64,000 nt of DNA from a virus (IMGVR_UViG_3300048818_000054:20451-84450), one strand, 5' to 3'. Counted from the stretch's first letter, positions 7,177 through 62,418 are shown. The notes: generated by a model not told the origin, from the letters alone. Made by a program: numbers and translations.

Positions 7177-7281
7177 GATGGCAACCTCTTGTTGCGGGCG
7201 GTCCCTCTGGCCTCCTATTCCACATGACCGTTTTACCGGGGTAGTGGATAATCACGCGCGGGAGCCGAGGGACCAAGGCGG

Positions 7282-11320: not shown

Positions 11321-12064
11321 TTAGTCTTCGGCGTCCGTGTCTTCGTCATCGCTGACAAGGCTGGACTGGTCTTCCTCGATATCTTCGGCCTCTTGACCCT
11401 TCTTGTTCTTGGGCAGGCTCTCGTAGACTTTGGCGAGGATGGCGCTTTCCATCCCGAAGGCGTCGATCATCGTTTCGGCCAGCGCTTCGACCACGGCCTT
11501 TGACGACGCGATGTTGTTTTGGGCGACTTCGAGGCCGGGAGCGAAAATGCTGTCGATCCATGACGCCATCTTGCGCGGCGTGATGACCAAGTTCTCCGCG
11601 CCCGCTAGCGTGACCAGATAGTCCGCCATCTTCTTCGCGACGGTTGCGGCATTGTCGATCAAAAGCTGCTGGCTCGCCACGTCCCCTTTCAGACTGCCTC
11701 GGATGAAGGCCGAAATGTTAGTCGAAGATCGGTCTTTTCCCTTATTGATCCAATCGACCTTCGGCCAAGCCGACCACGTATCTCCGTTCGGCTTTTTGAA
11801 CGCCACGACCTTTGCCGCCGCGTCCACGTCCTTGAACAGGTCGCCAGCCGGCGCGGAGCGCAGACGTGCGACAAAGTAGGTTGTTCCGGGAACGCCCTTG
11901 TGCTTGCCGTCAGCGAAGCCATAGGGCTTGATCCCGAGCGCAAGGTCGCCCGATCGTGCGAACACCAGATAATCCGGTGAGCCGCCCGATCCGAGCATAA
12001 AGGTGAGGGGTGATTTGGGGGCTTCTTCGCCGTCGCCCTTGGGTTGCTTTGCTTGTTTAGCCAA
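11321..12064 (-). CDS. hypothetical protein (early-type promoter, hairpin RBS)
   Basis: 247-aa ORF, TTG start 7 nt after AGGAG. Confidence 0.75.
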   Translation of the reverse strand: MAKQAKQPKGDGEEAPKSPLTFMLGSGGSPDYLVFARSGDLALGIKPYGFADGKHKGVPGTTYFVARLRSAPAGDLFKDVDAAAKVVAFKKPNGDTWSAWPKVDWINKGKDRSSTNISAFIRGSLKGDVASQQLLIDNAATVAKKMADYLVTLAGAENLVITPRKMASWIDSIFAPGLEVAQNNIASSKAVVEALAETMIDAFGMESAILAKVYESLPKNKKGQEAEDIEEDQSSLVSDDEDTDAED

Positions 12065-12065
12065 T

Positions 12066-12082
12066 GGAAACCTCCTGTTTCC
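12066..12082 (-). promoter_or_regulatory. hairpin RBS (CsrB-like loop)
   Basis: GGAAAC-AGGAG-GTTTCC. Confidence 0.7.
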
Positions 12083-12099
12083 GGGGTTACTATACTATG

Positions 12100-12127
12100 A
12101 ACATACGCTCTCGCGCGCCTATGTCAA
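12100..12127 (-). promoter_or_regulatory. sigma70-like promoter
   Basis: TTGACA-16-TATGTT. Confidence 0.6.
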
Positions 12128-13327
12128 GGATTGAAACTTCACATAATGCGTAACGGCCTCAGTCATTGAAGCATGGCTAACACGGGTGCCTTCGGCAAGG
12201 TTCGATTTGGCGAGAGCCATGGTTGCGATCTTGTCGGCGGCGACATTGTTCTTGGTCGTATTGTCGTGCCCGAACGTAAGCAACAGCGACACCGCGAAGT
12301 TCGCCGCTTCACTCTGATCCATCCCTTCGAAAACCATCACCTTGTCAATGCGGCCGGCGCGGTACAGTTCCTTGGGCAGCACCTTGTCATTGTTGGTCGT
12401 CATGAACGTCAGCACGCGGCTCTTGTGCTCGGCAAGCCACCAAAGCATTTGCGAGAGCATCCCGGCCGTGGTGCCCGAACTGTCATCGTGGCTCTGGCTG
12501 AACAGCTTTTCTACCTCGTCTAGTACGATCACGCATTCTGCCTCATTGTCGGCGCGCGCAAGGTTGATGGCGAGGTTGCCTTCGGACTGACCGACGAACT
12601 TCCCTTTCGTGCCCGCAACGTCGAGACGGAACAGGGGCACGCCCCAGCTTTCGGCAATGAACTTGGCAGCGGCGGTCTTGCCCACGCCGGGCGGACCGGT
12701 TGCCAAGATGCCGCGAGGGACCAACCGCGGGTCGGTCCCCGTGAGGAAAAACGGCTTCTCTCGCGCAGTCCAGCCTTGGAGGGCTAGAGAGGGCTCATAG
12801 AAGCCCTGCTTCGTTTCGACTTGTGTGAGCCCCTGACTGCCATGAAAGCACTCCTTGCGGGTCGCGCTGAGCCCTCCTACGGTCAAGCTGGCGTCGCGCG
12901 CCATAGTGAGGCGGACAAGCTCGGCCGTTTCCTTGATCGTGCAGCCGCCGAGGCCGCGCATGAGGGCAAGCGCCTTGGCGTTGTCCTTCGTGACGTGGTT
13001 GACGAATTGGCGTAGCAGCGGCTTGGGGACCGGGGCCTCTCCCGCGTCAAACATAGGCTCCATTATCTGGTCCGGATTGACCATTATGAGAGTGCAGCCC
13101 ATCTTGACCAGCCGGCTGTAAACCTCAATGAGGTTGAATACTTCCTTCGGCTTGCAGCGGTGCCAATAGAGCGCGTCTTGCTGATCTGGCAACGGCGTGT
13201 TGGGGGGCCAAAGCTTGGGCTTCTTGCCGGTGATCTCTTCGAGCACGGCCGAAAAGTTCATCGTGTCACGCGTGCTTGTCGCAATGATGGGGATTTGAGC
13301 CTTTACGGCCAGCGCGAGAATTTCCAT
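12119..13327 (-). CDS. AAA+ ATPase
   Basis: GPPGVGKT, IVLDEVEK, MTTN, RAGRID. Confidence 0.9.
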   Translation of the reverse strand: MEILALAVKAQIPIIATSTRDTMNFSAVLEEITGKKPKLWPPNTPLPDQQDALYWHRCKPKEVFNLIEVYSRLVKMGCTLIMVNPDQIMEPMFDAGEAPVPKPLLRQFVNHVTKDNAKALALMRGLGGCTIKETAELVRLTMARDASLTVGGLSATRKECFHGSQGLTQVETKQGFYEPSLALQGWTAREKPFFLTGTDPRLVPRGILATGPPGVGKTAAAKFIAESWGVPLFRLDVAGTKGKFVGQSEGNLAINLARADNEAECVIVLDEVEKLFSQSHDDSSGTTAGMLSQMLWWLAEHKSRVLTFMTTNNDKVLPKELYRAGRIDKVMVFEGMDQSEAANFAVSLLLTFGHDNTTKNNVAADKIATMALAKSNLAEGTRVSHASMTEAVTHYVKFQSLT

Positions 13328-13329
13328 GA

Positions 13330-13344
13330 GCAACCTCCTGTTGC
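13330..13344 (-). promoter_or_regulatory. hairpin RBS (CsrB-like loop)
   Basis: GCAAC-AGGAG-GTTGC. Confidence 0.7.
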
Positions 13345-13374
13345 ACGGCGCACGATAGACGAACGCCTGCCGAT

Positions 13375-56346: not shown

Positions 56347-57246
56347 CTACTGCTTGAGGGCGATCTTGGCAAAGTCGGGGAACGGCGTGTCAATCGCGAT
56401 GCCGAGGCCCATAAGGATTGCGCCGAGCGTCTTGCGCGCGAGCGGTATATCGTTGGCGATGCCCAAATGAAGGCTGGCGTAATCTGGCTTGAAGGTATCG
56501 AACCCGACGCCGATAATTGCGTTCTTGTGGGCGAGCAGCTTCGGACCCTCGATCCGGATTGAAAGCTGAGCGCCGTTATACTTGACCGCGACGTTCACGC
56601 CCTCGCCTCTCGCAACCACGAAATATCGCGAGCCGGCCGAAGTGCCATGGACAGGCTGGTAAAGGTGCTCCGCGCTCTTGAGATTAATCGTTGGTCCGTT
56701 CATTATGTCGCCTTCCTTAGTCGCATATTTCATCGGGGCGGTGCTGGTCGCTTGGAACGTCTTGCTGGTCCCGAGCGGCATCGGCTTTTTGAGGAACGAT
56801 AAGTCCTGAGCGTCGAATACTTCGGCTGCATCGTCGGCCGTCAAATCGATGGGCTGAGACTTCAATTTCGGCAAGGTGCTGAGAATGCTTCCGGGGGCAG
56901 CCGGCTTAGCGAACAGTTCGTGAGCCTTTTCCATCTGCGCCTTGGCAACCGTATGGGCCTTGATCGCATAGGAGATTGACTCTTTCACGTAAGCGGCTAG
57001 AGACGTGTTCTTGACTATGGGAAGCTTATTCTTGGTATCCGCTTGCAGATGGGGCGATATTTCCGCTGCATGGACCAAGAGGCCGTTCGTGCGGTCGCAA
57101 AACCACAAGCCGCTCGGCTTCCAAAAGACAGCCAGACCGACCGCCCACATTTGCTTCAAATCTTTGTCGCTACCCGTGAGCCACTGGATATCGTTCCAAG
57201 CGGACTTTAGTTTCGTGGGAGCGTCTTTCTTAATGAACAAAGCCAC
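56347..57246 (-). CDS. hypothetical protein (own promoter, hairpin RBS)
   Basis: GTG start 7 nt after AGGAG. Confidence 0.75.
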   Translation of the reverse strand: MALFIKKDAPTKLKSAWNDIQWLTGSDKDLKQMWAVGLAVFWKPSGLWFCDRTNGLLVHAAEISPHLQADTKNKLPIVKNTSLAAYVKESISYAIKAHTVAKAQMEKAHELFAKPAAPGSILSTLPKLKSQPIDLTADDAAEVFDAQDLSFLKKPMPLGTSKTFQATSTAPMKYATKEGDIMNGPTINLKSAEHLYQPVHGTSAGSRYFVVARGEGVNVAVKYNGAQLSIRIEGPKLLAHKNAIIGVGFDTFKPDYASLHLGIANDIPLARKTLGAILMGLGIAIDTPFPDFAKIALKQ

Positions 57247-57247
57247 C

Positions 57248-57264
57248 AAAAACCTCCTGTTTCT
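57248..57264 (-). promoter_or_regulatory. hairpin RBS (CsrB-like loop)
   Basis: AGAAAC-AGGAG-GTTTTT (one G-U pair). Confidence 0.65.
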
Positions 57265-57278
57265 ATTGGCTTATTTAC

Positions 57279-57307
57279 AATATAGGCGTGATCCGAAGCG
57301 GTATCAA
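57279..57307 (-). promoter_or_regulatory. sigma70-like promoter
   Basis: TTGATA-17-TATATT. Confidence 0.65.
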
Positions 57308-57337: not shown

Positions 57338-58168
57338 TTAAGCCCCCCAAATATTGCTCTTGGACGTGACCGGGCAATAGCTGTCGATCACCCCATGTGA
57401 CGTGTCATAGCTGGTCTTGGACCCTGCGGAGTAGTTGTTGCCGGTGTATGGGGTAACTTCATTCTTCCCGGACTTGGCGGTCGTCTTGTAGCCCTTGTGC
57501 TTCAACTTCTTGCAACCAAACTCCTTGACCAGAAAATCGACTTGCGACGTGCTCTCTACCGCCGTCTTGCAGTAGTTCGTGCGGACATACTCGATAGCGT
57601 CGCTCTCTCCGTAGCGGGTGACCAGCGCGGCAAGGAACATACCGGTCCGCCCGTGTCCGCCCATGCAACCGCAATGGACTTTTCGGCCGGCGTCGATCTG
57701 CTTTTTGGTCCAGTCCACCAGCTTGTTGAATTCTTCCGGCTTGTCCGGGATGCCCATGTCGGGAATGCGGAACAGGACTTCATCGCCCTTCTTCCAAGGC
57801 CAATTGCGTTGCGTGAACCGCATGTCATAGGCGAAGCCGATATACACGTCGGCGTCTTGGACGATCGGCTCGGAGCACGACCCGCCATAGATCACCTTGT
57901 CGGTCCCCGGCAACGGCATAGCCGGATGCTTATGGTAGCAGCGGGAAAAGATGCCGGCGTAATTGTGAGACTGATACTTTGTGCCGGTGCCGCTGACGCC
58001 GTGATGCTTGGCAGACGCCAGTTCGAATTTCGAATAACGCTGTTCCGCGCCAGAGCGCCACGGTAGCACGCCTTGCGCGCTGTAAGCCGGGTCGTGGCTG
58101 TCTTGCGGACCTAGGCCACCGTCACGGTGCTTTTCAAATTCGTCCCATGTATCCAGATACTTTGCCAT
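57338..58168 (-). CDS. Cys-based (PTP/dual-specificity-like) phosphatase with N-terminal extension
   Basis: VHCGCMGGHGRTG (CX5R); TAATG-coupled start. Confidence 0.85.
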   Translation of the reverse strand: MAKYLDTWDEFEKHRDGGLGPQDSHDPAYSAQGVLPWRSGAEQRYSKFELASAKHHGVSGTGTKYQSHNYAGIFSRCYHKHPAMPLPGTDKVIYGGSCSEPIVQDADVYIGFAYDMRFTQRNWPWKKGDEVLFRIPDMGIPDKPEEFNKLVDWTKKQIDAGRKVHCGCMGGHGRTGMFLAALVTRYGESDAIEYVRTNYCKTAVESTSQVDFLVKEFGCKKLKHKGYKTTAKSGKNEVTPYTGNNYSAGSKTSYDTSHGVIDSYCPVTSKSNIWGA

Positions 58169-59256
58169 TATGCCGCTTCCTTTCGAATGATCTTCTTGAC
58201 GTAAACCGGACCGGCCTTGCCGGGCATAACCAGCAAGTGTTCCTTGATGAAATTCTTCTTGTCGAGCGCGACCTGCGCGGCGAAAGCTTCGGCCTTGGCC
58301 TTGGCGGCGGCGATGGCGGCCTTTGTTTCCGGCGTCATGCCATAGATTAAGGTCTGTTTCTTTATTTCGTTCGGATATTTTTGGACTGAGCCTTTCGCTT
58401 CCACCGTGTTCCAATCGACATAGGGGCCGATCGCGCCGGGGAAGTAATCGCGAACCCAAGCGGCCATCCCGGTCATTTCCGGGTTGACGTAGTGAGCCAT
58501 TTCCGGGTCGTGAAGGATGGTCTCAATCATCTGTCCGGAGCGCTGCAAATCGAGCAGCCGAACAATGTAACTTCCGTTATGGCCGAACAGCTTACCAGGC
58601 TTGTTAAAGATGGGAGCGCAATTGTGCGAGAGGGTCCAAATGGTATCGAGCATGATCTCTGCCGTAAACTCGCCGTTCACAAAACGGCCCATGCAATCGG
58701 CAATGTTGCCCCACTTAGGACCGCCGTAAGCGCCGCCCCAGATTGAATGATAGTAAGACCAGCGAAGCGCGTCGCATAGCGTCCCGATCGAACAATCCAG
58801 CGTGTTCTTGAGCAGGCGGTTGATAATGTCTTCCTCGCCGCCAGAGGCGGTAAGGAAGTTGGCGACCGGCGCTCCGAATTTTTCGGTTAGCTTCGGTCCA
58901 TCGGTCTGCTTCGAATGACTGTGGCGGGCCTCGCGAACGCATATGGAAAGCAAGTAATAAAACGAGCGGCGGGCCTTCTCGCCCATCATCGCATGGTAGC
59001 GCTGAACGAAGTCCAATTCGGCGGCCGGCAGCGGCTCCAACGGATGGCGCTTGGCCGAGATTAACGCCATGCCATGGTTCATGCCGTAAAACCAAAGGGC
59101 TTCACGTTCAGGGCTGGCAAGAGGCGTCTTGTCTTGAGAATGAAATTGCTTGTAGGCGGGGATCACCGAGGAAACGGGAACTGCCGACATATCGGCCGGT
59201 CGCGTCAAAGCGCGTGAATTGTGATAGGCCAAAGTGTTTTGTGGGTCTGTGAGCAC
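58168..59256 (-). CDS. uncharacterised helical protein in the PPDK/phosphatase cluster
   Basis: 362 aa; own promoter; motifs CVREARH, YGGPKW..IA, HNCAPIFNK. Confidence 0.75.
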   Translation of the reverse strand: MLTDPQNTLAYHNSRALTRPADMSAVPVSSVIPAYKQFHSQDKTPLASPEREALWFYGMNHGMALISAKRHPLEPLPAAELDFVQRYHAMMGEKARRSFYYLLSICVREARHSHSKQTDGPKLTEKFGAPVANFLTASGGEEDIINRLLKNTLDCSIGTLCDALRWSYYHSIWGGAYGGPKWGNIADCMGRFVNGEFTAEIMLDTIWTLSHNCAPIFNKPGKLFGHNGSYIVRLLDLQRSGQMIETILHDPEMAHYVNPEMTGMAAWVRDYFPGAIGPYVDWNTVEAKGSVQKYPNEIKKQTLIYGMTPETKAAIAAAKAKAEAFAAQVALDKKNFIKEHLLVMPGKAGPVYVKKIIRKEAA

Positions 59257-59263
59257 GCCGGAA

Positions 59264-59276
59264 AAACCTCCTGTTT
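59264..59276 (-). promoter_or_regulatory. hairpin RBS (CsrB-like loop)
   Basis: AAAC-AGGAG-GTTT. Confidence 0.6.
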
Positions 59277-59289
59277 ATCAGGCATTTAG

Positions 59290-59318
59290 AACATAGCATC
59301 TAGGAGGGTCGCGTTCAA
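59290..59318 (-). promoter_or_regulatory. sigma70-like promoter
   Basis: TTGAAC-17-TATGTT. Confidence 0.6.
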
Positions 59319-59337: not shown

Positions 59338-59835
59338 TTAAGAAAGTCCTAAAAACCATCCGAAGCGCTTGCGCCACGCCGCCCAGAAAAACCAACGCTG
59401 GATTTCTTCAACGGGGAAGGCGGCTACGTAATCGATCTGCTCTTCTGTCTCGCACGACCGGTCATCGTAATGCCAGCGGACGTAGCCGACCGGATTTCCA
59501 ATCCCGGCGACCTTGGCTAGGAGCGCAAGGAACAGACCGGTGCGGCCGATGCCGCCCATGCAGCCGACGTAAACTTTCTTGCCGTCCAGCATGGCTCGGA
59601 GCGCTTTCTTGAGGACCGAGACGACGGCTGACGTGTCCTGCGGAACCTGAAAGTCCTTGATTGGCAACCACGCATGGACGCCTTCGAACGGGACGCGCTC
59701 GGAGCGAACGCAAACGTTGAAGGTTCCGCCGACCGGGCGCGCGTCAAACGGGCCACCGTCGATATCGAAACGATACCAACCGCCGTCCCATTGAAAATAG
59801 AGAGGCATTGAATTTGTCAGTCTCTTATGAAGCAC
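59338..59835 (-). CDS. Cys-based (PTP/dual-specificity-like) phosphatase
   Basis: VYVGCMGGIGRTG; LPIKDFQVP; ET.EQ. Confidence 0.85.
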   Translation of the reverse strand: MLHKRLTNSMPLYFQWDGGWYRFDIDGGPFDARPVGGTFNVCVRSERVPFEGVHAWLPIKDFQVPQDTSAVVSVLKKALRAMLDGKKVYVGCMGGIGRTGLFLALLAKVAGIGNPVGYVRWHYDDRSCETEEQIDYVAAFPVEEIQRWFFWAAWRKRFGWFLGLS

Positions 59836-59836
59836 G

Positions 59837-59853
59837 CGAAACCTCCTGTTTCG
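59837..59853 (-). promoter_or_regulatory. hairpin RBS (CsrB-like loop)
   Basis: CGAAAC-AGGAG-GTTTCG. Confidence 0.7.
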
Positions 59854-59857
59854 TCAA

Positions 59858-60070
59858 TCACTTATAGCACATTTTGACAGCATCGCAAATGATATCGCCG
59901 TCAATGGTTAAGAGCCAATCCCTGAACCGCCAGTTCCCATATTCGCTTGTGACTGGCGAGGCGCGCCGTCCCATGGCGGCGAGGGTACGGGCGAACATGC
60001 CGCGCATCCCATCTTCCTTGGCGTGAGCGATGGCGTTATCCGACACGCGGTACACCCTGAACCTTGTCAT
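59858..60070 (-). CDS. hypothetical protein
   Basis: 70-aa ORF overlapping the CsrA-like gene end. Confidence 0.5.
   Translation of the reverse strand: MTRFRVYRVSDNAIAHAKEDGMRGMFARTLAAMGRRASPVTSEYGNWRFRDWLLTIDGDIICDAVKMCYK
59861..59888 (-). promoter_or_regulatory. sigma70-like promoter
   Basis: TTGCGA-16-TATAAG with TG extended -10. Confidence 0.5.
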
Positions 60071-60341
60071 AGCCGTTTTCCTCGCGCCATCTGTCGCCCT
60101 TTAAGATACGCATGGATTTGGGCGCGTCAATAACGACTCTCGCAATGCCGTGTTGCGGGCGGTCCCCGGACGAAATGAACACGTCAGGCATAATCTCTGT
60201 CGCCTCTTCCTCTCCGATCTTGAACATCTGGTCGCCGGCCGCGAGGGTGAAGGTGAAGCGTCCGGAGCGATACGCCACGAAAACCTGCTTGTCGGCAACA
60301 TAGAAATCGTCGCCTTCTCTGAGGCTGAGGGTGAGGGGCAT
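60036..60341 (-). CDS. CsrA/RsmA-like RNA-binding protein (with insertion)
   Basis: LTLSLREGDDFYVAD ~ CsrA LILTRRVGETLMIGD; ARVVIDAPKSMRILKGD ~ VRIGVNAPKEVSVHREE. Confidence 0.55.
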   Translation of the reverse strand: MPLTLSLREGDDFYVADKQVFVAYRSGRFTFTLAAGDQMFKIGEEEATEIMPDVFISSGDRPQHGIARVVIDAPKSMRILKGDRWREENGYDKVQGVPRVG

Positions 60342-60345
60342 GAGG

Positions 60346-62325
60346 CTAGGCTCCTAAGACAGAGAACACGGCATATTCAGCGGGCATAGCCTTGGGCGCT
60401 GCCGTATGGCCGTCGTGGTCGATAATCAGACCCGCCAGAGCCTTACCACGGATTTTGATCGCGTTCTGTAAAACCTTGACGAACGGGTCGGTCTTGACAG
60501 TCAGGTTGCCGAAAGTCTCGCGTAGCGTGTCGTCAGCTTCGTTCAGGAAAGCCTTGGGCGGGCGAACGTCAAGGGTGACGTGCATACGCATCGGCAGAGC
60601 CGCGAGGCCGTCCAACACCGCCGTCATGACCTCTTCCGAACCCCACCACTGAGAGGCCATGATCCGATGGGGCTTGGCCGCTCCCATGTCGCACGGGACA
60701 GGCGGGCAAGTGCCGAGCATTTCGAAAGACCAATCGATCACGTTCTGGACCGCCTTGTCATCCGAGGCGTCGATCACCGGAACCTCTTGATTGATCCAAA
60801 CCCGGCCGGTCGAACCGTCGATCGTAACGGTTTTCCACTTGCCGGCGTTGTCCAGCATATGCGGCCCGACGCCAACCACGCAAGTCTTGTCCATTGCGCG
60901 GGCGACCACGGCGGCGTGACTGGTAGCACCGCCCATGGCGGTTAGAATGCCCTTGGCCTTCGCCATCCCGGCGATATCGTTAGGGCTGGTTTCGTGCGTC
61001 ACCAGAATGCAATCGAACTTGGCGGCGACCGCATCGGCCGAGCTAAACACCGGCTGCGCGGTCACGACGCCGGGGCAACCGGGGATGCCGGTGAAATCTG
61101 GCTTGACCTTGTAATCGGGATCAATCTGCGGGCGGCGCAGCGTCTTGAACTGTTCGCTCGAAAGTTTCTTGAAAGCGTCAAGGCGGGTCCACTCGCCAGC
61201 GCCCACCTTGTCTACCGCGATGCGGAAGGCCGCGCGCGCCGAGCGCTTTCCAGAGCGGCTTTGCAGGATATAAAGCTTGCCCTGCTGAACCGTAAACTCA
61301 ATGTCCACCATGTCATTATAGATGGTTTCCAGCTTCGAGCAGAGCGCCAAAAGCTGGGCGTGAACGTCGGGCCAAGTAAAGTCGAGGCCGTTCGTGTTAT
61401 AATTCCACTTGCCGATCATGCCTTCAACGGGATGCGGGGTCCGGATGCCGGCCACCACGTCTTCACCTTGGGCGTTCTCCAAAAACTCTCCGAACATGCC
61501 GGGCTCGCCAGTTGACGGGTTGCGAGTGAAAAGGACGCCGGTTCCGCTCGACTTGCCCATGTTGCCGAACACCATCGCCTGTATGGTAACGGCGGTGCCC
61601 ATGTCATCGGGGATGCTATTCAGCTTGCGATACTCAATGGCGCGGGGGCTCTCCCAGCTATCGAACACGGCCAAGATGGCGGCAGCTAACTGCGCCCCCA
61701 AAGTATTGGGGAATTCCTTCTGCGTCGCGGCCTGAAACTTCTGTGTCATCAAAAAGCTGACCGCCTTCAAAGCGCCAACGGTCAGGTCGGTATCGAGCAC
61801 CGCTTTATCGAGCACCTTCATTGCGGCCAACTCGCCGTCAAACACGGCCATCGGAACACCGAACGCCGTTGCGCCGAGCATCGTTATCAAGCGACGGTAG
61901 CTGTCGAACGCGGCGCGCTCGCCAATCTTATCCCCCCAGCTATCGACGTTGCTTGTCGTGAGGCCGACGTTCAAAATCGTGTCCATCATGCCGGGCATAG
62001 AAACTGGCGCGCCAGAGCGGACCGAAACGAGAGGCATGAAGCCGAACTTCTTTTCGAGGGTCGCCATGTGCTCCATGGTCTTTGCGACCAAACCATCAAT
62101 GAAAGACACGTCAGCCGTCGTCACGCCGGCCTTCTTCATTACGCGGAACTTATTGCAAACGTCCGTCGTGATGGTGAAACCAGGAGGAACCGGCATTCCA
62201 TCATTGACCATCCTCACAAGGCCGGCACCCTTGCCGCCAAGGACGCGCTTCGTTTCCGAAGCGTCCGACGATTGCCACTGGCAACCGGTGTCCGAAAAAT
62301 CATACATGGGAAGGTAGTCGGTCAT
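60346..62325 (-). CDS. PPDK-like dikinase: ATP-grasp + phospho-His swivel domains, lacking the PEP/pyruvate barrel
   Basis: LGGKGAGL, PVPPGFTITT, LVSVRSGAPVSMPGMMDTILNVG, NAQGEDVVAG, GGATSHAAVVAR; only 659 aa. Confidence 0.9.
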   Translation of the reverse strand: MTDYLPMYDFSDTGCQWQSSDASETKRVLGGKGAGLVRMVNDGMPVPPGFTITTDVCNKFRVMKKAGVTTADVSFIDGLVAKTMEHMATLEKKFGFMPLVSVRSGAPVSMPGMMDTILNVGLTTSNVDSWGDKIGERAAFDSYRRLITMLGATAFGVPMAVFDGELAAMKVLDKAVLDTDLTVGALKAVSFLMTQKFQAATQKEFPNTLGAQLAAAILAVFDSWESPRAIEYRKLNSIPDDMGTAVTIQAMVFGNMGKSSGTGVLFTRNPSTGEPGMFGEFLENAQGEDVVAGIRTPHPVEGMIGKWNYNTNGLDFTWPDVHAQLLALCSKLETIYNDMVDIEFTVQQGKLYILQSRSGKRSARAAFRIAVDKVGAGEWTRLDAFKKLSSEQFKTLRRPQIDPDYKVKPDFTGIPGCPGVVTAQPVFSSADAVAAKFDCILVTHETSPNDIAGMAKAKGILTAMGGATSHAAVVARAMDKTCVVGVGPHMLDNAGKWKTVTIDGSTGRVWINQEVPVIDASDDKAVQNVIDWSFEMLGTCPPVPCDMGAAKPHRIMASQWWGSEEVMTAVLDGLAALPMRMHVTLDVRPPKAFLNEADDTLRETFGNLTVKTDPFVKVLQNAIKIRGKALAGLIIDHDGHTAAPKAMPAEYAVFSVLGA

Positions 62326-62327
62326 CG

Positions 62328-62344
62328 TTGAACTTCCTGTTCAA
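62328..62344 (-). promoter_or_regulatory. hairpin RBS (CsrB-like loop)
   Basis: TTGAAC-AGGAA-GTTCAA. Confidence 0.7.
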
Positions 62345-62360
62345 TCACGGTGTTGATTAG

Positions 62361-62388
62361 AACATAGCACGCCGTACGGCTCTTGCAA
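62361..62388 (-). promoter_or_regulatory. sigma70-like promoter for the PPDK-like gene
   Basis: TTGCAA-16-TATGTT with TG extended -10. Confidence 0.55.
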
Positions 62389-62418
62389 GTACGACGTGCC
62401 ATGATGGTTAAAAATCAG

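What the first reader, a model, noticed from the sequence alone, without database searches (positions are those of the whole stretch)
60036..60341. Phage-encoded CsrA-like protein next to its candidate targets
Seen: both ends of the protein align by eye to CsrA (beta1 LTLSLREGDDFYV; beta4-5 ARVVIDAPKSMRILKG), separated by a ~30-aa insertion that may be a partial duplication. The RNA-contacting Arg44 position appears to be Lys. The gene is directly downstream of the PPDK-like gene, which carries a hairpin RBS, and amid three more such genes. Inference: a feedback repressor that shuts off early genes, analogous in role to T4 RegA but with a CsrA fold. Chromosomal csrA is generally reported as rare in Alphaproteobacteria, so a phage-supplied regulator would be self-contained.
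Basis: partly seen in the sequence, partly recalled or inferred. Interest (0 to 1): 0.85.

Follow-up and report, generated by a model that had tools for sequence, protein, structure and literature searches.

The report
Single-chain CsrA-like phage RNA regulator
This phage gene encodes a divergent, probably one-sited relative of the bacterial translation repressor CsrA that always travels with a small RelE-toxin-like partner and sits among phage genes whose ribosome-binding sites are displayed in CsrA-style GGA hairpin loops, so it most likely lets the phage control translation of its own messages, although no binding has been tested.

Summary
ORF 60036-60341 (minus strand, 101 aa) is a real, conserved gene. 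It has no Pfam hit on its own. Its family has 261 representative clusters, almost all 85-118 aa, and is a divergent branch of CsrA: 89 of 115 members hit Pfam CsrA, and the profile's 11 best solved-structure matches are all CsrA/Rsm proteins.

The "insertion" is four extra beta-strands. In the confident model, whole CsrA chains superpose on residues 36-92, and RsmN/RsmF chains span 1-85. This suggests a single-chain pseudo-dimer that keeps one RNA site. The Arg44 position is Lys here and Arg in 103 of 115 relatives.

New here: a 70-aa RelE/DUF4258-fold gene follows it in all 15 loci examined and is fused to it in 8 representative clusters.

Hairpins that display the Shine-Dalgarno sequence in the loop are real: 38 of 140 ribosome-site-like sequences have them, against 6.6 expected.

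The repressor role is plausible but untested. The "host lacks CsrA" argument is weakened, because Stenotrophomonas and Vibrio phages carry the family too.

Phage CsrA homologues are already published, and some members are auto-annotated as CsrA. This scan has noted phage CsrA-plus-leader-hairpin cases on other DNA before. I rate it a new variant of a known kind.

The parts
60036..60341 (-). CsrA-like gene (101 aa). Predicted strands 3-7, 12-15, 18-25, 31-35, 38-42, 48-51, 54-58, 66-72 and 79-81, helix 82-89, disordered tail 90-101.
59858..60070 (-). Partner gene (70 aa) with its own GAGGAA ribosome site. It overlaps the last 35 nt of the CsrA-like gene and has a RelE/ParE/DUF4258-like fold.
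60346..62325 (-). PPDK-like swivel-His kinase (PPDK_N plus the PEP-utilizers mobile domain; no PEP/pyruvate barrel). It is the first gene of the tightly packed kinase / CsrA-like / partner unit.
62328..62344 (-). Hairpin ribosome site of the kinase gene: 6-bp stem, AGGAA loop, 9 nt before the ATG.
   Evidence: not the minimum-free-energy fold of the 46-nt leader
59837..59853 (-). Hairpin ribosome site of phosphatase 1 (59338-59835): 6-bp stem, AGGAG loop.
59262..59278 (-). Hairpin ribosome site of ORF362 (58168-59256): 4-bp stem, AGGAG loop.
57248..57264 (-). Hairpin ribosome site of ORF300 (56347-57249): 7-bp stem, AGGAG loop. A promoter-like site (10 of 12 matches) lies at 57307-57279.
   Evidence: (z -2.6)
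13329..13345 (-). Hairpin ribosome site of the AAA ATPase gene (12119-13327): 5-bp stem, AGGAG loop.
12066..12082 (-). Hairpin ribosome site of ORF247 (11321-12064): 6-bp stem, AGGAG loop.

Best explanation
The gene encodes a divergent CsrA-superfamily RNA-binding protein built as a single-chain pseudo-dimer.

Residues 36-92 form a complete CsrA-type chain (five strands plus a helix). Residues 1-35 supply four strands that in CsrA come from the second subunit. Only one of the two CsrA RNA sites is kept. It is formed by the N-terminal strand (L3, L5, R8) next to the last strand and helix (I79, K81 at the Arg44 position). This explains why only the two ends of the protein still look like CsrA.

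Inferred function: it binds the A(N)GGA(G) loop of the short hairpins that display the Shine-Dalgarno sequence in the leaders of about ten promoter-proximal, non-structural phage genes. These include the kinase gene that heads its own operon. Binding would lower their translation, giving feedback or temporal control.

It acts together with the translationally linked RelE/DUF4258-fold partner, whose role is open.

Shown: homology, conservation, gene linkage and fusion, and the existence and enrichment of the hairpins. Inferred: the pseudo-dimer topology (from a model), RNA binding, the choice of targets, and the direction of regulation.
For: Homology:
- 261 representative relatives, nearly all full-length and 85-118 aa.
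- 89 of 115 hit Pfam CsrA. A 53%-identical relative passes the gathering score, 29.1 against 27 bits.
- The profile's 11 best matches among solved structures are all CsrA/Rsm proteins, in two segments.
- Predicted-structure libraries return 100-130-aa proteins named carbon storage regulator (AlphaFold DB E 1e-5, TM 0.63-0.72; BFVD; ESM Atlas).

Architecture:
- AlphaFold2 model with pLDDT 91.8 and pTM 0.80 as a monomer.
- Whole CsrA/RsmA chains superpose on residues 36-92: 5z38_H 56 of 56 residues at rmsd 2.3; 7yr6_B 55 of 55; 1vpz_A 56 of 57.
- RsmN/RsmF chains, in which one chain makes one RNA site, superpose on residues 1-85 at rmsd 2.0-2.1 and 28-30% identity. The sheet orders used for this argument come from PMC3791407.

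Site conservation: L3 in 115 of 115; Arg44 column R in 103 of 115; A36-P37 in 112-114 of 115; V40 and V42 columns hydrophobic.

Candidate targets:
- 38 of 140 ribosome-site-like sequences in this genome and 11 related loci have a stem of 4 bp or more closing a 5-6-nt loop. Permuting the 3' flanks gives 6.6 +/- 2.4, with a maximum of 15 in 2000 permutations.
- Orthologous genes keep the hairpin with different stems, and the loops AAGGAG, ACGGAG and AGGAG fit the published ANGGA loop motif.
- In three relatives the CsrA-like gene itself has such a hairpin.
- The kinase, the CsrA-like gene and the partner are packed with a 4-nt gap and a 35-nt overlap.
Against: - No experiment exists, and the window protein alone has no significant family hit.
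- The CsrA Arg6 position is hydrophobic in the family, and Arg44 is Lys in this copy.
- A single site should bind more weakly than dimeric CsrA (my recollection of single-site heterodimer work, not checked here).
- Any Shine-Dalgarno sequence contains GGA, so GGA in the loop is not in itself specific.
- The hairpins are weak. Only one of six leaders folds significantly better than shuffles, and the kinase hairpin is not in the minimum-free-energy fold.
- They lie close behind -10-like elements, so they could instead be 5' stabilisers or devices that present the ribosome site.
- The gene pair also occurs where the kinase/phosphatase genes are absent, and in Vibrio phages with a degenerate RNA-site motif.
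- The topology is read from the aligned ranges of a predicted model, not from coordinates.
Confidence: 0.45

Rival explanations
1. RegB-like two-part nuclease. The CsrA-like protein is the specificity subunit. It docks on GGA loops at ribosome sites and hands them to the RelE-fold partner, which cuts the mRNA in or near the Shine-Dalgarno sequence. This would inactivate early phage and/or host messages rather than merely masking them.
For: - The partner gene follows the CsrA-like gene in 15 of 15 loci and is fused to it in 8 representative clusters (E 1e-25 to 6e-9). A fusion of an RNA-binding domain with a nuclease-fold domain is what a targeted RNase would look like.
- The partner model (pLDDT 91) matches almost only RelE, ParE, MqsR, YoeB, HigB, BrnT, colicin D/E5 and CdiA toxins (Z 3-5.4). 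It has TM 0.80 to a DUF4258 cluster.
- T4 RegB has a RelE/YoeB-like fold, cuts inside GGAG at Shine-Dalgarno sites, and needs the RNA-binding protein S1 (PMC3014915; PMC1702504).
Against: - The fold matches are weak (no Z >= 8, Foldseek E > 0.6).
- No catalytic residues could be assigned. Only G21 and N46 are invariant, and the Arg after N46 is Trp in this phage.
- ParE-type members of this fold are not nucleases.
- Complex prediction gave no answer.
Confidence: 0.15
2. Toxin-antitoxin-like or addiction/exclusion cassette. The RelE/ParE-fold protein is a toxin, and the upstream CsrA-fold protein neutralises or regulates it by protein-protein contact, as CsrA is bound by FliW or CesT. RNA hairpins would play no part.
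For: - The gene order (small upstream gene overlapping a downstream RelE-fold gene) is the classic type II layout.
- The pair moves as a unit into an integrative element, next to a cI-like repressor and a serine recombinase.
- That element carries a second, free-standing CsrA-like copy beside the fused one.
Against: - Conservation in the CsrA-like protein is concentrated exactly on the CsrA RNA-contact residues.
- Covalent fusion of toxin and antitoxin is unusual.
- There are no PADLOC or NCBIfam toxin-antitoxin hits.
- The position is fixed in the replication-proximal module of a lytic-type 100-kb phage lineage.
Confidence: 0.12
3. Host-directed CsrA mimic. The protein binds host mRNAs or sRNAs carrying GGA motifs to reprogramme host physiology or defence, as proposed for canonical phage CsrA/RsmA homologues. 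The phage's own hairpins would be unrelated 5' stabilisers or devices that present the ribosome site.
For: - Published proposal for phage RsmA (PMC8450108; PMC7366521).
- The family also occurs in phages of hosts with their own CsrA/RsmA (Vibrio and Stenotrophomonas phages).
- The hairpins sit right after -10-like elements.
Against: - Rhizobial-type hosts have no Csr regulon to hijack (PMC7143759).
- A one-site protein is poorly suited to the two-site bridging typical of many CsrA targets.
- The enrichment and conservation of GGA-loop hairpins on the phage's own genes next to the regulator would then be a coincidence.
Confidence: 0.13

Closest known systems
CsrA / RsmA / RsmE (Pfam PF02599)
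   Same: Homologous sequence at strands 1-2 and strand 4 / strand 5 / helix. The A-P-K/R motif and the Arg44 column are conserved. A whole CsrA chain superposes on residues 36-92. Candidate operators are GGA loops over Shine-Dalgarno sequences.
   Different: - About 95-100 aa instead of about 60.
- Predicted to fold alone, with four extra strands replacing the partner subunit.
- One conserved RNA site instead of two.
- The Arg6 position is hydrophobic.
- No CsrB-type decoy RNA was found.
- This protein scores below the Pfam and NCBIfam thresholds.
RsmN / RsmF of Pseudomonas aeruginosa
   Same: A precedent for an insertion after strand 2 that redirects the chain so that strand 1 and strand 5 of one chain form one RNA site. 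It is the best structural match with real identity (28-30%, rmsd 2.0-2.1).
   Different: RsmN inserts one helix and still forms a docked dimer with two sites. Here the insert is four strands, and a monomeric pseudo-dimer is predicted.
Canonical phage- and plasmid-borne CsrA/RsmA homologues (Burkholderia phage DC1, Pseudomonas phage RsmM type; PMC8450108, PMC7366521)
   Same: A CsrA-family gene carried by phages, including phages of hosts that lack chromosomal csrA.
   Different: Those are short, canonical proteins found with full-length profile coverage. This long family would mostly fail the 50% model-coverage filter used in PMC8450108. It also has an obligate RelE-fold partner.
ORF99 'sRNA-binding CsrA' of Vibrio phage vB_VneS_J26 (PMC12038007)
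   Same: Same genomic slot between the PPDK-like kinase and the phosphatase. Its N-terminal 91 aa match this family (E 1.2e-5). It is already annotated as CsrA.
   Different: It is 160 aa, apparently the fused form. The A-P-R / Arg44 motif is degenerate. The annotation was not analysed further in the paper.
T4 RegB endoribonuclease with ribosomal protein S1
   Same: A phage system that inactivates early messages at GGAG Shine-Dalgarno sites using a RelE/YoeB-fold protein plus an RNA-binding helper.
   Different: There is no sequence homology. Nuclease activity of the partner here is unproven, and the helper would be phage-encoded and of CsrA type.
T4 RegA translational repressor
   Different: The fold is unrelated, and RegA sites are AU-rich and unstructured (PMC3014915).

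Membership tests
CsrA/RsmA (PF02599) | Sequence matches the family profile at the curated threshold | tested here: inconclusive
   The window protein has no Pfam or NCBIfam hit. Relative P0003 scores 29.1 bits against the 27-bit cut-off. 89 of 115 family members reach E<=0.01. The family profile finds only CsrA/Rsm proteins among its 11 best solved-structure matches.
CsrA/RsmA (PF02599) | Chain of five beta-strands followed by a C-terminal helix | tested here: met
   Model residues 36-92 superpose on entire CsrA/RsmA chains: 56 of 56 and 55 of 55 residues, rmsd 2.3-2.6, Z 3.6-4.6. This is a predicted model, not an experimental structure.
CsrA/RsmA (PF02599) | Domain-swapped homodimer with two symmetric RNA-binding surfaces | tested here: not met
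   The monomer model is self-contained (pTM 0.80). The N-terminal 35 residues occupy the partner-subunit strands, and only one surface keeps CsrA-like residues. The oligomeric state was not measured.
CsrA/RsmA (PF02599) | RNA-contact residues (E. coli L2, L4, R6, V40, V42, R44) | tested here: inconclusive
   L2, L4, V40 and V42 are kept. R44 is R in 103 of 115 sequences but K in this protein. R6 is replaced by a hydrophobic residue in the family.
CsrA/RsmA (PF02599) | Binds GGA in hairpin loops and represses translation | not testable with these tools
   Only candidate sites could be shown.
CsrA/RsmA (PF02599) | Antagonist: CsrB/RsmZ-type decoy RNA or FliW | tested here: not met
   No Rfam family is found in the window. 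There is no non-coding cluster of GGA hairpins in the genome. The neighbouring partner has a RelE-like fold, not a FliW-like one.
RsmN/RsmF subgroup | Insertion between strands 2 and 3 so that one chain builds one RNA site | tested here: inconclusive
   RsmN/RsmF chains align across model residues 1-85 (rmsd 2.0-2.1, 28-30% identity). However, the insert here is four strands, not the defining helix.
RelE/ParE superfamily (partner protein) | Two helices packed on a four-stranded antiparallel sheet | tested here: inconclusive
   The model has pLDDT 91. The match list is dominated by RelE, ParE, MqsR, YoeB, HigB and colicin D/E5, but at Z 3-5.4. TM is 0.80 to a DUF4258 cluster, 0.73 to a RelE-superfamily toxin cluster and 0.61 to a ParE_toxin cluster. 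There is no sequence-profile hit.
RelE/ParE superfamily (partner protein) | Catalytic or toxic activity with a cognate antitoxin | not testable with these tools
   The only invariant residues are G21 and N46. There are no PADLOC or NCBIfam hits.

The most novel reading that the evidence does not exclude
The CsrA-like protein and its RelE-fold partner form a phage-encoded endoribonuclease specific for Shine-Dalgarno loops; in some lineages the two are a single fused polypeptide. The one-sited CsrA module reads the A(N)GGAG loop, and the RelE-fold module cuts the message. This would be a functional analogue of T4 RegB plus S1, assembled from two unrelated bacterial building blocks, and the first CsrA-family protein used as a nuclease guide.
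Probability: 0.15. Interest if true: 0.8.

Novelty: new variant of a known kind. Interest (0 to 1): 0.58.

Why it matters
CsrA is regarded as an obligate domain-swapped dimer whose two sites clamp RNA. A widespread, mostly viral branch (hundreds of sequence clusters) that folds the same sandwich from one chain and keeps one site would be a natural single-site CsrA. It would show how the fold can be rebuilt.

Its strict linkage and occasional fusion to a RelE-fold protein points to a two-component RNA-control device that has not, to my knowledge, been described.

The covarying Shine-Dalgarno-loop leaders give a concrete, small set of RNAs to test. Because the same module is present in the cultivable Rhodobacter phage RcZahn (genes 6-8), the idea is directly testable in a host group that has no Csr system of its own.

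Tried and rejected
- Complex prediction of the CsrA-like protein with the partner gave no answer. It is not evidence either way.
- An internal sequence repeat between residues 1-37 and 38-92 was sought with hhalign and not found (probability 0.5%). A duplication origin is therefore only a structural suggestion.
- Foldseek against solved structures gave no significant hit for either model. The top-Z rows of the wide structural search for the CsrA-like model are viral fusion-protein domain I and cytochrome-c lyase sandwiches (Z 6-7). I treat these as generic beta-sandwich resemblance.
- A CsrB-like decoy RNA was sought with Rfam and by clustering GGA hairpins. The densest cluster lies in coding sequence.
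- PADLOC and NCBIfam gave nothing useful.
- A scan of species genomes with the Nitratireductor relative found nothing.
- I could not get a bacterial genome handle. CsrA absence in alphaproteobacterial hosts therefore rests on the literature, not on a search here.
- The covariation count on pre-selected hairpins is circular by construction. I rely on the unselected permutation test instead.
- The third protein search, with the partner alignment, added no new members.

Full report
**The gene.** The window belongs to a 99,945-bp uncultured virus record. ORF 60036-60341 on the minus strand encodes 101 aa. It starts 4 nt after the stop of a 659-aa PPDK-like gene, and a 70-aa ORF (59858-60070) overlaps its last 35 nt. 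It is a real gene:
- tblastn finds it in Rhodobacter phage RcZahn and Rhizobium phages RHph_TM16 and RHph_Y1_11 at 33-40% identity.
- An exhaustive HMMER search finds 261 representative clusters at E<=1e-3. Nearly all are 85-118 aa and align over residues 1-87.
- In 12 loci the gene order is conserved: terminase, small genes, kinase, this gene, small gene, phosphatase, ORF362, phosphatase, ORF300, DNA polymerase.

**Is it CsrA-like?** Alone, the protein has no Pfam hit, only a PHROG 'CsrA-like regulator' hit at E 0.2, and no PDB sequence hit. At family level the answer is clear:
- A 53%-identical relative passes the Pfam CsrA gathering score, 29.1 against 27 bits.
- 89 of 115 aligned members hit PF02599 at E<=0.01.
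- The 11 best matches of the family profile among all solved-structure sequences are CsrA, RsmA, RsmE, RsmF and RsmN. Two segments align: positions 3-21 with CsrA 2-20, and positions 65-93 with CsrA 26-54.
- hhalign against E. coli CsrA gives E 2.4e-5.
- Predicted-structure libraries return 100-130-aa proteins named carbon storage regulator.
- One public source already names a 53%-identical cluster 'sRNA-binding carbon storage regulator CsrA'.

So is the Lys at the Arg44 position: A73-P74-K75 aligns with CsrA A36-P37-K38, giving K81. That column is Arg in 103 of 115 relatives and Lys in 3.

**What the 'insertion' is.** AlphaFold2 with the 115-sequence alignment gives a confident monomer (pLDDT 91.8, pTM 0.80). 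It has nine strands and one helix. The middle part forms four strands at 31-35, 38-42, 48-51 and 54-58. Structural alignment shows two complementary things:
- Entire canonical CsrA/RsmA chains superpose on residues 36-92: 5z38_H 56 of 56 residues at rmsd 2.3; 7yr6_B 55 of 55; 1vpz_A 56 of 57. The offset to CsrA numbering is an exact, gap-free 37.
- RsmN/RsmF chains superpose across residues 1-85 with 28-30% identity at rmsd 2.0-2.1.

Morris et al. (PMC3791407) give the sheet orders. In RsmA each sheet mixes strands of both subunits. In RsmN an insert after strand 2 redirects the chain, so that one chain contacts one RNA.

Combining these, residues 36-92 act as one complete 'subunit'. Residues 1-35 provide strands 1-4 of a second, truncated one. 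The N-terminal strand lies beside the last strand and helix, as in a CsrA RNA site. Only that site is conserved, which is why only the two ends resemble CsrA. The second site would need a strand that does not exist.

This topology is inferred from aligned ranges of a model. I had no coordinates. No internal sequence repeat is detectable, so a tandem-duplication origin is possible but unproven.

**The partner (new here).** The overlapping 70-aa gene has a homologue directly downstream of the CsrA-like gene in every locus examined, 15 of 15. These include Stenotrophomonas phage DLP_5 (genes 139 and 140, the latter annotated 'transcriptional repressor') and an integrative element.
- All eight long (166-208 aa) members among the representatives carry this protein as a C-terminal domain (E 1e-25 to 6e-9). 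One such fusion sits in the same genomic slot, with no separate small gene.
- Its model (pLDDT 91) has the two-helix plus sheet layout of RelE.
- The exhaustive structural search lists almost only RelE, ParE, MqsR, YoeB, HigB, BrnT, colicin D/E5 and CdiA toxin domains, but at a low Z of 3-5.4.
- The ESM Atlas structure search gives TM 0.80 to a DUF4258 cluster, 0.73 to a RelE-superfamily toxin cluster and 0.61 to a ParE_toxin cluster.
- Sequence profiles find nothing, and complex prediction gave no answer.

**Candidate targets.** In this genome at least ten genes on the coding strand have their Shine-Dalgarno sequence in the 5-nt loop AGGAG (AGGAA for the kinase) of a 4-7-bp hairpin, 7-12 nt before the start codon. 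They are the kinase, phosphatase 1, ORF362, ORF300, an AAA ATPase, ORF247 and four outside the window.
- The core 11-mer occurs 8 times with at most 1 mismatch, against 0.51 expected.
- In relatives the orthologous genes carry AAGGAG, ACGGAG or AGGAG loops on quite different stems. In three relatives the CsrA-like gene itself carries one.
- An unselected test took all 140 GGAG/GGAA ribosome-site-like sequences before ORFs in this genome and 11 loci. 38 have stems of 4 bp or more, against 6.6 +/- 2.4 (maximum 15) when the 3' flanks are permuted.
- The loops fit the published ANGGA loop motif.

Caveats:
- Any Shine-Dalgarno sequence contains GGA.
- The hairpins are weak, and only one leader beats its shuffles.
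- They follow -10-like elements closely, so they could be leader stabilisers.
- The hairpin genes are non-structural (kinase, phosphatases, ATPase), which fits early or middle expression. Timing is not known.

**Range and prior knowledge.**
- Phage CsrA/RsmA homologues are published (PMC8450108; PMC7366521).
- Rhizobia are reported to lack CsrA (PMC7143759), and S. meliloti is reported to lack a chromosomal csrA.
- The kinase-bearing phage supergroup extends to Stenotrophomonas and Vibrio phages.
- DLP_5 has the intact pair. Vibrio phage J26 ORF99, published as 'CsrA' (PMC12038007), is a 160-aa, apparently fused and degenerate member.
- The fused form also occurs next to a cI-like repressor and a serine recombinase, without kinase or phosphatases, together with a second free-standing copy.

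The pair, rather than the kinase module, is therefore the unit. Absence of host CsrA cannot be the general reason for carrying it.

This scan has also reported phage CsrA genes with GGA-loop leaders on other DNA (e1-3298143, e1-3600432). I treat those as leads only.

**Mechanism and verdict.** Most likely (0.45) the protein is a one-sited CsrA-type RNA binder. It would occupy the Shine-Dalgarno loops of a small regulon of phage leaders, including its own operon, and dampen translation, with the partner modulating this.

Rivals:
- A RegB-like guided nuclease, 0.15. T4 RegB is RelE-like, cuts GGAG and needs S1.
- A toxin-antitoxin-like cassette, 0.12.
- A host-directed CsrA mimic, 0.13.

It is a homologue of CsrA but not a canonical member. 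The domain-swapped two-site dimer is not met in the model, the curated thresholds are not met by this copy, and no decoy RNA or FliW is present. I class it as a new variant of a known kind, of moderate to good interest, with clear experiments available in RcZahn.

Noticed in passing
window 60346-62325 (-): The 'pyruvate phosphate dikinase' has only the nucleotide-binding domain and the swivel phospho-His domain, with no PEP/pyruvate barrel. Homologues occur in 57 phage records, mainly Vibrio and Stenotrophomonas siphophages but also Listeria, Enterococcus and Bacillus phage G. The 'auxiliary metabolic gene' label is doubtful.
   Followed up: partly
window 59338-59835 and about 57338-58150 (-): Both phosphatase genes hit the Pfam DSP-PTPase families, but their PHROG (phrog_17568) is labelled 'thymidylate synthase'. 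The DLP_5 orthologue is deposited as 'thymidylate synthase thyX'. This looks like a propagated mis-annotation.
   Followed up: partly
L018:5857-7594 (ENA metagenome contig, 36 kb): An integrative element with a serine recombinase and a cI-like HTH repressor carries two CsrA-like copies, one free-standing (89 aa) and one fused to the RelE-fold domain (197 aa). A 6-bp hairpin with a TAGGAT loop lies in the leader of that operon.
   Followed up: partly
L014 (Nitratireductor sp. OM-1 chromosome record, first 11.4 kb): The whole ParB / terminase / kinase / CsrA-like / partner / phosphatase module lies at the very start of a 3.98-Mb chromosome record. This could be a prophage, a pseudolysogen or an assembly join. 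The species-genome scan found no other bacterial copy.
   Followed up: no
L010:6276-6680 and L016:6694-7089 (DLP_5 gene 140): In some lineages the RelE-fold partner carries a C-terminal extension with paired CxxC motifs (zinc-ribbon-like). The DLP_5 copy is annotated 'transcriptional repressor'.
   Followed up: no
window 7183-7193 (-): A seventh copy of the leader motif reads AACAAGAGGTT. The stem arms are kept but the loop GGA is lost. It lies before a 154-aa gene and could serve as a natural negative control for binding tests.
   Followed up: no
window 62350-62400, 59860-59880, 59280-59295, 57279-57307 (-): Each hairpin leader is preceded at about 8-25 nt by a -10-like hexamer (TATGTT, TATAAG, TATATT). 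The 5' UTRs are therefore probably only about 20-30 nt and consist mainly of the hairpin.
   Followed up: partly
L016 (Stenotrophomonas phage DLP_5), gene starts at 2109, 3983, 7082, 7594: Four genes, including the kinase, phosphatase and ORF362 orthologues, share the ribosome-site motif AATGGAGTG. This is an ANGGA-type motif with little or no stem.
   Followed up: no
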